Virus record (IMG/VR): IMGVR_UViG_2563366924_000005
Coordinates: 1-40,849 of that record
Direction: 5' to 3' (one strand)
Length of the DNA: 40,849 nucleotides
Source: a virus
Taxonomy: Duplodnaviria > Heunggongvirae > Uroviricota > Caudoviricetes
Position 1 is the stretch's first letter. Each line of letters opens with the position of its first letter. The notes under the pieces were generated by a model. The model made no database searches. It saw only the letters and a program-made list of their open reading frames with translations, and had not been told where the DNA came from. The translations under genes were made by a program, and so were the position numbers. Positions 31,048-31,848 of this stretch are shown here, one piece after another.

Positions 31048-31848
31048 TTAGTACGGGAGTTCTTCCTGAGCTTCACGAATGCGTTCAGATACCCACTCCT
31101 TGAACGTTGTCCAGTTAGGTACTGTTTTCGCAAACTCAGTAAGTTCATCGAGATCTAAGTCGTATGAAAGCCATGCCTTGAGATAACTCATTACATGGTT
31201 TTGATTGATATATATGCGGTTTTTAAGGATTCCTCTGATGTATAGAATCCTTTGTTCTTTTGGCGGTTTTCTTTTTGTCGCTGCTATGCGAGGGATGTAC
31301 TCAAAGAATTCACCAGTAAGCTCATGGGTTATTTCTTGGGTGAGTTTTTTGTCTGCGGCAATCTCAATCGCATCGAGTATTTCTTCAAGCTTATATATTC
31401 GAAGCCATCTCTTGATAGATTTTCGCCCATTGTCATTAACAGTAAATGGTGCAATGCAGTCGTCAATTTTGGTAGCGACAATATCAACAACATCGTCTTT
31501 TAGGCTCTTAAGGCCATCTCGCCACTTGATCATCATCTCCAGTTGCTCTCGCTTGGTATTAAGTTCCTGGAGTTGCTGCCTTTGCTTTTCCATTATTGAG
31601 TTATCGCTGAGCAGTTTGTCGCTTTTCCCGCCATTACAACTATCGCAAGAAGTAATAAGGTTCATCATGTCGTTATCGCCACCCTTGCTAACTGGGTTGA
31701 TATGGTCGACATGAAGGATGACGTCTGGCGCAGAACTCCCACAGTACTGGCATTTGAAGCCATCGCGCTTGAAAACCTCAAACCGTATTTTCTTGGTAAT
31801 GCCGGAACGAATCTTTTTTACCTGGTCTGGTGTAGGTTTTTTTGCCAT
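31048..31848 (-). CDS. HNH-nuclease-domain protein with uncharacterised C-terminal domain (266 aa)
   Basis: N-terminal HNH motif FKCQYCGSS...HVDHINPVSKGGDNDMMNLITSCDSCNGGK; coiled-coil then about 130 aa of unknown function; AT-rich; sits between cII and the replication initiator. Confidence 0.6.
   Translation of the reverse strand: MAKKPTPDQVKKIRSGITKKIRFEVFKRDGFKCQYCGSSAPDVILHVDHINPVSKGGDNDMMNLITSCDSCNGGKSDKLLSDNSIMEKQRQQLQELNTKREQLEMMIKWRDGLKSLKDDVVDIVATKIDDCIAPFTVNDNGRKSIKRWLRIYKLEEILDAIEIAADKKLTQEITHELTGEFFEYIPRIAATKRKPPKEQRILYIRGILKNRIYINQNHVMSYLKAWLSYDLDLDELTEFAKTVPNWTTFKEWVSERIREAQEELPY

What the first reader, a model, noticed from the sequence alone, without database searches (positions are those of the whole stretch)
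31048..31848. HNH-nuclease fusion protein between cII and the replication genes
A 266-aa protein has an N-terminal HNH motif (HVDHIN...CDSCN), a coiled-coil and an unrecognised 130-aa C-terminal domain. It is AT-rich and sits where lambdoid phages normally go straight from cII to the initiator. It could be a homing endonuclease, a replication-associated nuclease or a single-gene defence or anti-defence factor.
Basis: partly seen in the sequence, partly recalled or inferred. Interest (0 to 1): 0.6.

Follow-up and report, generated by a model that had tools for sequence, protein, structure and literature searches.

The report
Initiator-linked phage HNH nuclease gene
This is a real, intact HNH nuclease gene with an unexplained helical tail that, across many phages, sits directly in front of the replication-initiator gene and travels with it, so it is more likely a selfish or competitive nuclease riding on the replication module than a defence gene, but nobody has tested it.

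Summary
The 266-aa ORF at 31048-31848 (minus strand) is real. Residues ~31-80 form an HNH nuclease domain (Pfam E=1e-13), and all catalytic and zinc-binding residues are invariant in 47 homologs. A 50-residue helix follows, then a confidently predicted all-helical domain (~135 aa). That domain matches no Pfam family, PDB sequence or known fold, and occurs only fused to this HNH.

The gene is the first gene of a two-gene cassette, HNH plus replication initiator, in the early rightward operon. In 73 of 74 viral loci with a downstream ORF call, a partner ORF starts within -60 to +25 nt of the HNH stop. In five annotated phages from four bacterial groups the partner is an initiator or replisome organizer, of several families.

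The gene is accessory: close initiator homologs lack it. In sister modules the same slot holds GIY-YIG/T5orf172 nucleases or another HNH-like gene, and a homologous HNH domain is embedded in one initiator allele.

In E. coli genomes, homology to the common cII gene breaks exactly at this gene's start.

I favour an initiator-linked, homing-endonuclease-like or competitive nuclease (0.4) over a replication accessory nickase (0.3) or a defence/anti-defence factor (0.1). The family is already annotated "HNH endonuclease" but has not been studied. Interest is moderate.

The parts
31048..31848 (-). HNH-X gene, 266 aa (stop codon TAA at 31048-31050)
   Evidence: ORF. Full-length match to phrog_16986 (unknown function), E=1e-151. 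Identical protein in Escherichia phages Louie and Dewey and an Stx1a phage.
31855..31858 (-). GGAG ribosome-binding site, 6 nt upstream of the ATG
   Evidence: Sequence read directly.
31609..31758 (-). HNH (His-Me finger) nuclease domain, residues ~31-80, with CxxC...CxxC zinc site and D48-H49, N63, N72
   Evidence: Pfam PF01844 E=1e-13 and PF14279 E=3.5e-12. Residues invariant. Best solved relative is the Mn-dependent Gme HNH nicking endonuclease 4h9d.
31456..31605 (-). Long helix, residues 82-131 (possible coiled coil or dimerisation element); W109 and R100 invariant, Q102 and R110 invariant or nearly so
   Evidence: AF2 secondary structure H82-131; conservation.
31051..31455 (-). Orphan all-helical C-terminal domain 'X', residues 132-266, with conserved motif Y203-x-R-G-I207-L-x-N-R211 and W246
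   Evidence: pLDDT 94-98. No Pfam, PDB-sequence or fold match. 780 relatives, nearly all with the same HNH+X architecture; the short ones checked are truncations.
30149..31036 (-). Replication initiator gene (partner); ATG at 31036, AGGTGG ribosome-binding site at 31042-31047, 11 nt after the HNH-X stop
   Evidence: phrog_17247 E=1e-191; 'replication initiation protein' families phrog_16167, 12556 and 1408; junction sequence.
30503..30555 (.). 21-bp direct repeats AAGGGAATCAGGAATCAGGTT (2 full copies plus the first 11 nt of a third) inside the initiator gene: putative origin iterons, ~500 bp from the HNH-X gene
   Evidence: the repeat finder families D2 and D3. They encode the peptide repeat DSLNLIPDSLNLIPDSL, conserved in initiator alleles. 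The origin function is inferred by analogy with lambda O (my knowledge).
29253..30164 (-). DnaC-like helicase loader, third gene of the replication module
   Evidence: PF01695 E=5e-19; phrog_50 E=6e-88.
31870..32163 (-). cII gene, upstream neighbour; in E. coli genomes homology ends at its stop codon
   Evidence: PF05269 E=9e-48. 1,317 of 5,426 E. coli genomes match, and in the sampled rows the match ends at query positions ~1470-1478 = window ~31869-31877.

Best explanation
HNH-X is an accessory nuclease that belongs to a mobile two-gene cassette, nuclease plus replication initiator with its internal origin. It behaves like a free-standing homing-endonuclease-type or competitive nuclease.

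Shown: it is transcribed with the early rightward operon, immediately after cII and immediately before the initiator, with no promoter or terminator of its own. The HNH active site and zinc site are intact and conserved. The gene sits exactly at the recombination boundary between the widely shared cII gene and the replication module. It is always linked to its initiator allele in E. coli, yet related initiators do without it.

Inferred: the enzyme nicks DNA, or cuts it if the long helix makes it a dimer. The orphan C-terminal domain supplies target recognition. The target lies in or near the initiator/origin region of related phages or prophages that lack the gene. Repair of that damage from the HNH-carrying genome then copies the HNH+initiator cassette into the rival, or the rival simply fails to replicate.
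For: (1) The nuclease is intact: catalytic and zinc residues are invariant in 47 homologs of 45-86% identity. The closest solved relatives are a nicking HNH enzyme, McrA and Cas9/IscB HNH domains.

(2) The layout, N-terminal nuclease then long helical linker then C-terminal domain, is the general layout of free-standing homing endonucleases such as I-HmuI and I-TevI (my knowledge).

(3) It is dispensable. HK639 (81% identical initiator), Hafnia yong1 (67%), Ralstonia RSK1, Pseudomonas Fyn8, Vibrio 41E34.2 and Acinetobacter NL carry the same initiator family without it.

(4) The same slot holds other nuclease genes. A GIY-YIG protein sits next to a 77%-nt allele of this initiator in E. coli OW1E2. 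A 42%-identical T5orf172 protein sits next to a lambda-O-type initiator in CurroJimenez. An HNH/DUF968-like gene occupies the slot in Bordetella phages.

(5) It sits at a mosaic boundary. 1,317 E. coli genomes share cII, homology stops at the cII stop codon in the rows listed, and only 17-18 genomes carry HNH-X, always with this initiator. Neighbouring DnaC-like sequence is shared with phages that have other initiators. Barth et al. 2023 (PMC10448857) describe nuclease genes at boundaries of genetic exchange next to essential phage genes.

(6) Nucleases stack: E. coli 20AR0300 has HNH-X plus a homologous HNH domain inserted in-frame in the initiator.

(7) Precedents exist for origin- or replication-directed nucleases in conflicts between elements: Odn and NixI.
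Against: The position is far more constant than I would expect for a homing endonuclease family. 73 of 74 loci have the partner ORF abutting or overlapping, across at least four partner N-terminal domain types and across Proteobacteria and Firmicutes phages.

The association is old and stable: no two HNH-X proteins above 60% identity have different partner types.

No clean presence/absence polymorphism with identical flanks was found, and few decayed copies were seen.

The C-terminal domain is well conserved (about 26-45% identity among 31 diverse members). That fits a conserved ligand better than a fast-changing DNA target. It matches no known homing-endonuclease DNA-binding domain.

No cleavage site, target or phenotype is known.
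Confidence: 0.4

Rival explanations
1. HNH-X is a genuine accessory factor of the phage's own replication. It is co-expressed with the initiator and recruited to the origin or to replication intermediates through its C-terminal domain. There it nicks or processes DNA, for example to start or favour rolling-circle (sigma) or recombination-dependent replication, or to restart stalled forks.
For: Near-universal placement immediately upstream of the initiator, with overlapping or abutting reading frames in 73 of 74 loci. The position is retained while partner families were swapped at least 14 times. There is complete linkage with the initiator allele in E. coli genomes. Both domains are under strong purifying selection, and the C-terminal domain is never found without the HNH. 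A homologous HNH domain sits inside an otherwise complete initiator that is the only initiator annotated in that prophage's replication module. Putative origin iterons lie ~500 bp away. The closest solved relative is a nicking enzyme.
Against: Close initiator homologs function without it, with the slot empty or filled by unrelated genes. Two unrelated nuclease superfamilies in the same slot fit opportunistic nuclease genes better than a required activity. Having both HNH-X and an initiator-embedded HNH in one module is redundant for a replication role. The C-terminal domain shows no relationship to initiator or DnaD-type domains. No literature reports such a factor.
Confidence: 0.3
2. HNH-X is a defence or anti-defence nuclease. 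Either it attacks parasites of the phage (satellites or plasmids whose origins it cleaves, as Odn does) or superinfecting phages, or it degrades host DNA or a host defence component.
For: HNH domains are common in defence systems; there are weak HNH-domain-level PADLOC hits to PtuB, ZorE and type II restriction enzymes. Odn (a T5orf172 nuclease with an initiator DNA-binding domain) cleaves a satellite origin. PHROG profiles that match both this initiator's N-terminal domain and a nuclease exist: phrog_5718 and phrog_8130.
Against: There is no full-length match to any PADLOC model, and no partner ATPase or sensor; the neighbours are cII and the initiator. There is no promoter of its own, so it should be silent in a lysogen. 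The C-terminal domain is unrelated to initiator DNA-binding domains, so the Odn architecture is not met. The constant placement next to the initiator is not explained by this reading.
Confidence: 0.1
3. It is a decaying or inactive remnant with no current function.
For: It is rare in E. coli (17-18 of 5,426 genomes). A few truncated database entries exist.
Against: All catalytic residues are invariant. The family has 780 clusters at 50% identity, nearly all with the same architecture. The structure prediction is confident. Copies in E. coli genomes are intact at 98.8-99.4% identity.
Confidence: 0.03

Closest known systems
Free-standing HNH homing endonucleases of phages (I-HmuI type; IPA-HNH genes of ICP1, PMC10448857)
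   Same: N-terminal HNH nuclease with a C-terminal non-catalytic domain. Dispensable. Lies beside an essential gene and at a boundary of genetic exchange. Other nuclease families occupy the same slot in relatives.
   Different: The C-terminal domain is not a known DNA-binding module (NUMOD, AP2, HTH, zinc ribbon). The position is almost invariant, always before the initiator. The association is ancient and stable. No presence/absence polymorphism or target site was found.
Gme HNH nicking endonuclease (PDB 4h9d) / McrA / Cas9-IscB HNH domains (Pfam HNH, HNH_5, HNH_4)
   Same: Same catalytic domain type, with CxxC...CxxC zinc site and D-H...N...N active site. Best sequence and structure matches.
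   Different: Those are either stand-alone ~100-aa domains or parts of restriction or RNA-guided enzymes. None has the long helix plus the X domain, and none is linked to a replication initiator.
Odn, the origin-directed nuclease of phage ICP1 (T5orf172 + RepA_N)
   Same: A phage nuclease tied to replication-initiator biology. It is a possible model for how the nuclease could act on a rival origin.
   Different: Odn recognises the origin through an initiator-type DNA-binding domain. The X domain shows no similarity to any partner initiator domain, and the nuclease superfamily differs.
Terminase-associated HNH proteins (HK97 gp74 type)
   Same: Small phage HNH proteins that work with another phage machine.
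   Different: Those lie next to the terminase and cos site in the late region. This gene lies in the early operon between cII and the initiator.
PHROG phrog_16986 (unknown function) and NCBI 'HNH endonuclease' entries
   Same: This protein is a member: E=1e-151, full length. Identical proteins are already deposited and annotated.
   Different: These annotations carry no function beyond the domain name. The initiator linkage and the orphan domain are not described in any paper I found.

Membership tests
HNH (His-Me finger) endonuclease superfamily | beta-beta-alpha-metal fold with a catalytic His (D-H), a structural Asn and a metal-binding Asn/His | tested here: met
HNH (His-Me finger) endonuclease superfamily | Structural zinc site CxxC...CxxC (in the McrA/Cas9-like subgroup) | tested here: met
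   C33, C36, C68 and C71 invariant in 47 sequences.
HNH (His-Me finger) endonuclease superfamily | Metal-dependent nuclease activity | not testable with these tools
   Needs purified protein; inferred from the intact active site only.
Free-standing homing endonuclease gene | Nuclease domain joined to a sequence-specific DNA-binding domain | tested here: inconclusive
   The nuclease domain is present. The C-terminal domain is folded and conserved but matches no known DNA-binding module. Its pI is 8.1, not strikingly basic.
Free-standing homing endonuclease gene | Sporadic presence/absence among close relatives with conserved flanks | tested here: inconclusive
   The slot content differs among related modules. 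However, among the matches listed, no genome has the same flanks and an empty or precisely vacated site.
Free-standing homing endonuclease gene | Cleaves the allele lacking the gene and is copied into it | not testable with these tools
   Requires cleavage assays and mixed-infection crosses.
Terminase-associated HNH (HK97 gp74 type) | Gene adjacent to the terminase and cos region | tested here: not met
   The neighbours are cII and the replication initiator in the early operon.
Septu PtuB / Zorya ZorE / other defence HNH proteins | Full-length match and the partner gene(s) of the system next to it | tested here: not met
   PADLOC hits cover only residues ~10-110, E>=9e-8, and there is no PtuA/Zor neighbour.
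IscB / Cas9 RNA-guided nucleases | RuvC domain plus HNH, score above the family cut-off | tested here: not met
   NF040563 60.4 bits against a cut-off of 175, HNH region only.
DnaD/DnaB-type replication domain (PF07261) as identity of the C-terminal domain | Significant sequence or structure match to the DnaD C-terminal domain | tested here: not met
Odn-like origin-directed nuclease | Nuclease fused to an initiator-type origin-binding domain | tested here: not met
   hhalign of X against the partner initiator N- and C-terminal domain profiles gave probabilities below 3% in 8 of 9 comparisons and 59% over 29 residues in one. The architecture is met by the 20AR0300 initiator allele, not by HNH-X.

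The most novel reading that the evidence does not exclude
HNH-X is a conserved origin-associated nickase that a large group of temperate phages use on their own DNA. It would be co-translated with the initiator and would nick the opened origin or an early theta intermediate to launch rolling-circle or recombination-dependent replication. That would make it a dedicated protein for the theta-to-sigma switch, whose mechanism in lambdoid phages is still unresolved. The initiator alleles with an embedded HNH domain would be the fused version of the same device.
Probability: 0.12. Interest if true: 0.85.

Novelty: new variant of a known kind. Interest (0 to 1): 0.45.

Why it matters
If the favoured reading is right, this family, together with the GIY-YIG genes in the same slot, would be nucleases that drive whole replication-initiator cassettes through phage populations. 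That would give a mechanistic reason for one of the classic mosaic joints of lambdoid genomes, the cII/replication-module boundary.

If the rival reading is right, a widespread nickase would be a previously unrecognised part of replication initiation in temperate phages.

Either way the question is directly testable. Phages Louie and Dewey carry an identical copy and grow on E. coli K-12 with restored O16 antigen, and natural relatives without the gene (CurroJimenez, HK639 and apparently Huey) are in hand.

The C-terminal domain is also a confidently folded, widespread domain with no known relative.

Tried and rejected

(2) The C-terminal domain as a copy of an initiator domain (Odn-type logic): hhalign was negative.

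(3) 'Domain-only' proteins lacking the HNH: the short hits are truncated gene calls that start inside the HNH domain or inside the long helix.

(4) Long variants (400-600 aa) as fusions to replication proteins: their tails have no significant Pfam match.

(5) Plasmid association: the only full-length hits are phage-sized, non-mobilizable circles.

(6) Defence system membership: only domain-level PADLOC hits.

(7) A known RNA around the gene: no Rfam match at E<=1.

(8) The afdb50 fold library was unavailable. The viral fold library returned only HNH-domain matches plus one uncharacterised full-length relative.

(9) The literature searches found no functional study of this family.

Full report
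**1. What is in the sequence**

The window contains an ATG-initiated ORF at 31048..31848 on the minus strand, encoding 266 aa. A GGAG ribosome-binding site lies 6 nt upstream of the ATG.

On the same strand, in the direction of transcription, the gene order is:
- a cro-like gene;
- cII (31870-32163; PF05269, E=9e-48);
- this gene;
- a replication initiator (30149-31036; phrog_17247 E=1e-191, plus 'replication initiation protein' PHROGs);
- a DnaC-like helicase loader (29253-30164; PF01695, E=5e-19);
- a MarR/Ren-like gene;
- NinB.

A cI-type repressor is divergently transcribed. The initiator's ATG follows the HNH stop codon after 11 nt that contain an AGGTGG ribosome-binding site. On the minus strand, no promoter-like site or terminator lies between cro and the initiator. 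The gene therefore reads as part of the early rightward, repressor-controlled operon.

The 'AT-rich' remark is weak. The gene is 42.4% GC against 46.7% for the window, which is the 15th percentile of same-size windows. Its neighbours are similar, at 41.9-45.5%.

**2. The protein**

Residues 33-77 match Pfam HNH (E=1e-13) and HNH_5 (E=3.5e-12).

In an alignment of 47 homologs (45-86% identical), C33, C36, D48, H49, N63, C68, C71 and N72 are all invariant. That is a complete zinc site and a complete D-H...N...N active site.

The closest solved relatives are the Mn-dependent Gme HNH nicking endonuclease 4h9d, McrA, and the HNH domains of Cas9 and IscB.

AlphaFold2 run on the family alignment gives mean pLDDT 84. 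It predicts one long helix (residues 82-131) and an all-helical C-terminal domain with pLDDT 94-98.

That C-terminal domain, called X here, has conserved residues of its own: W109, Y203, I207, R211 and W246 are invariant in the 47-sequence alignment. It matched nothing in any of these tests:
- No Pfam family, for the protein or for 31 diverse members scanned one by one.
- No PDB sequence, using a profile of the domain.
- No Foldseek hit in the PDB or in viral models beyond the HNH domain.

An exhaustive search of 1.84 billion cluster representatives with X alone found 780 relatives. Nearly all have X starting at about residue 75 of a 250-270 aa protein, which is the same architecture. The short hits I checked are truncated gene calls that begin inside the HNH domain or the long helix. 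A minority carry extra C-terminal tails with no significant Pfam match. X is therefore an orphan domain that appears to exist only as the partner of this HNH domain.

**3. Where the family lives**

Identical proteins are encoded by Escherichia phages Louie and Dewey and by an Stx1a phage. Louie and Dewey are P22-like Lederbergvirus phages (PMC12243541).

Full-length relatives of 36-52% identity occur in phages of Pseudomonas, Oenococcus, Komagataeibacter and Vibrio. In all five annotated contexts the gene lies immediately upstream of a 264-299 aa gene. PHROGs classifies that gene as a replication initiator or replisome organizer, but of different families: phrog_17247/5810, phrog_1701 (DnaD-like), phrog_3992 (DUF1376) and phrog_270 (HTH_36). 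The upstream neighbours differ: cII, a repressor-like gene, an 'antitoxin', and hypothetical genes.

I then examined 80 IMG/VR loci:
- 78 have an intact HNH-X ORF, and 74 of these have a downstream ORF call.
- In 73 of the 74, the downstream ORF starts between -60 and +25 nt of the HNH stop. 55 overlap it, and the commonest offset is -8.
- The median partner length is 291 aa.
- The four loci without a call are mostly cut off by contig ends.

By BLAST clustering, the partner's N-terminal 125 aa belongs to the window initiator's family in 53 loci. It belongs to three other reference types in 15 loci, and 6 are singletons. The C-terminal halves fall into more than 25 clusters.

On a neighbour-joining tree of HNH-X, the partner type changes at least 14 times. 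The minimum possible for 10 types is 9. No pair of HNH-X proteins above 60% identity has different partner types. The position in front of the initiator has therefore been kept through repeated, but ancient, partner swaps.

Full-length hits in the plasmid collection are 29-39 kb non-mobilizable circles, which are probably phage DNA.

**4. It is accessory, and the slot attracts nucleases**

Phages with a homologous initiator often lack HNH-X. What sits in the slot upstream of the initiator varies:

| Phage or strain | Initiator relation | Slot content |
|---|---|---|
| HK639 | 81% aa identity | 134-aa unknown gene |
| Hafnia yong1 | 67% aa identity | Clamp-like/RusA-like gene |
| Ralstonia RSK1 | Same family | Empty |
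| Pseudomonas Fyn8 | Same family | 'Antirepressor' gene |
| Vibrio 41E34.2 | Same family | Small unknown gene |
| Acinetobacter NL | Same family | Small unknown gene |
| Bordetella phages | Same family | 173-aa gene matching HNH PHROGs (phrog_131, E=2.5e-12) and, weakly, DUF968 |
| E. coli OW1E2 | 77% nt allele | 230-aa GIY-YIG nuclease abutting the initiator |
| CurroJimenez | Lambda-O-type initiator | T5orf172/MUG113 protein |

The OW1E2 GIY-YIG protein is 42% identical (E=3e-46) to the CurroJimenez protein, even though the two sit beside different initiator types.

In E. coli 20AR0300, HNH-X is intact and the initiator itself carries an in-frame HNH domain. The domain lies in the linker between the initiator's N-terminal domain and the repeat region. 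It is homologous to the HNH domain of HNH-X (pairwise E=1e-13). Pseudomonas phage P27 seems to have the same arrangement.

Two PHROG profiles, phrog_5718 and phrog_8130, each match both this initiator N-terminal domain and a nuclease.

**5. Mosaic structure in E. coli**

Of 5,426 complete E. coli genomes, 1,317 carry this cII. In the rows listed, homology stops at the cII stop codon (query positions ~1470-1478, window ~31869-31877).

Only 17-18 genomes carry HNH-X, always with this initiator at 98.8-99.4% identity. Among the matches listed, no genome has one without the other.

On the other side, the DnaC-like and Ren-like genes are shared at ~95% with phages that have other initiators, such as mEpX1 and CurroJimenez. 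Forty-odd genomes match only the last 60 nt of the query.

[HNH-X + initiator] is therefore a discrete cassette of about 1.7 kb, with HNH-X at its upstream edge. The initiator gene contains 21-bp direct repeats at 30503-30555. By analogy with lambda O (my knowledge), these are probably origin iterons, and they lie about 500 bp from the nuclease gene.

**6. Interpretation**

*Shown:* an intact, conserved HNH nuclease with an orphan partner domain. It is expressed with the initiator and tightly linked to it. It is dispensable for the initiator family. It sits at a recombination boundary, in a slot that other nuclease superfamilies also occupy.

*Inferred:* what it cuts, and why.

I favour a homing-endonuclease-like or competitive nuclease that acts on rival replication modules and so promotes its own cassette (confidence 0.4). 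The reasons are:
- it is dispensable;
- it sits at a mosaic boundary;
- GIY-YIG and other HNH genes occupy the same slot;
- nucleases stack in one module.

These are the signatures described for phage nuclease genes at boundaries of genetic exchange (PMC10448857). Origin- or replication-directed nucleases in conflicts between elements have precedents in Odn and NixI.

The main rival is a bona fide accessory nickase of the phage's own replication (0.3). It is supported by the positional constancy, the overlapping reading frames, the stable association, the strong conservation of X, and the initiator allele with an embedded HNH domain. The Genome Research survey of lambdoid phages warns that HNH gene mobility makes position a risky guide to function (PMC12315714). 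That caution applies to both readings.

A defence or anti-defence role (0.1) has no specific support. A decayed remnant (0.03) is contradicted by the conservation.

**7. Novelty and verdict**

The protein is already in databases as 'HNH endonuclease', and its family is phrog_16986 (unknown function). The one paper I found that mentions a member, for Oenococcus phage Krappator, lists it only as an HNH endonuclease in the replication module (PMC12403621).

I did not find the following described anywhere: the orphan domain, the near-obligate placement before initiators of several families, the alternative nucleases in the same slot, or the initiator-embedded HNH domain.

I class this as a new variant of a known kind, of moderate interest. 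It is readily testable in phages Louie and Dewey.

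Noticed in passing
window 31894-31927 (+ strand): Strong terminator-like hairpin (12-bp stem, 6 GC pairs, T-run) on the strand antisense to the 3' end of cII, like the terminator of lambda's oop antisense RNA (my knowledge). A ~77-nt RNA ending here would start near the HNH-X start codon, so its promoter would lie inside the 5' end of the HNH-X gene. There is no Rfam match, and the simple scan finds no plus-strand promoter there.
   Followed up: partly
window 30503-30555 and 30569-30720: Inside the initiator gene there are 21-bp repeats (2 full copies plus the first 11 nt of a third), which are probable origin iterons. There are also three copies of a 47-nt repeat (62-100% identity) carrying two short plus-strand hairpins (30586-30605, 30680-30699). 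The repeats encode repeated peptide segments of the initiator's linker.
   Followed up: partly
L091:2001-3038 (E. coli 20AR0300); probably also Pseudomonas phage P27, PP740689 ~44510-45382: A replication initiator allele with an in-frame HNH domain inserted between its N-terminal domain and the iteron-encoding linker. The domain is homologous to the HNH of HNH-X, and HNH-X is present upstream in the same module.
   Followed up: partly
L090:3901-4593 (E. coli OW1E2) and L006:3479-4123 (phage CurroJimenez): GIY-YIG/T5orf172 nuclease genes, 42% identical to each other, occupy the same slot between cII and the initiator. They sit next to two different initiator families.
   Followed up: partly
L008:2456-2992 (Hafnia phage yong1 gp27): A 178-aa protein in the same slot weakly resembles the central domain of the DNA polymerase III beta clamp (PF02767, E=1.8e-4, below cut-off). 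It also matches a PHROG labelled RusA-like resolvase.
   Followed up: no
proteins P0125, P0151, P0197, P0225, P0269 (metagenomic relatives): HNH-X relatives of 400-600 aa carry long, mutually different C-terminal extensions with no significant Pfam match.
   Followed up: partly
NZ_CP081778.1 / NZ_CP081786.1 (39,448 bp) and NZ_CP081694.1 (29,741 bp), E. coli strains 0H24-0H26: Records deposited as plasmids carry the same HNH+initiator cassette as the chromosomal prophage of the same strains. They look like excised or replicating circular phage DNA rather than plasmids.
   Followed up: no
window 26630-27352 (- strand): The window encodes a 240-aa protein here that looks Rha/antirepressor-like by eye (not tested). 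Phage Louie, otherwise ~98.6% identical across 29000-33300, is annotated with a different HNH endonuclease a few genes downstream of NinB in its nin region. The nin regions therefore differ.
   Followed up: no
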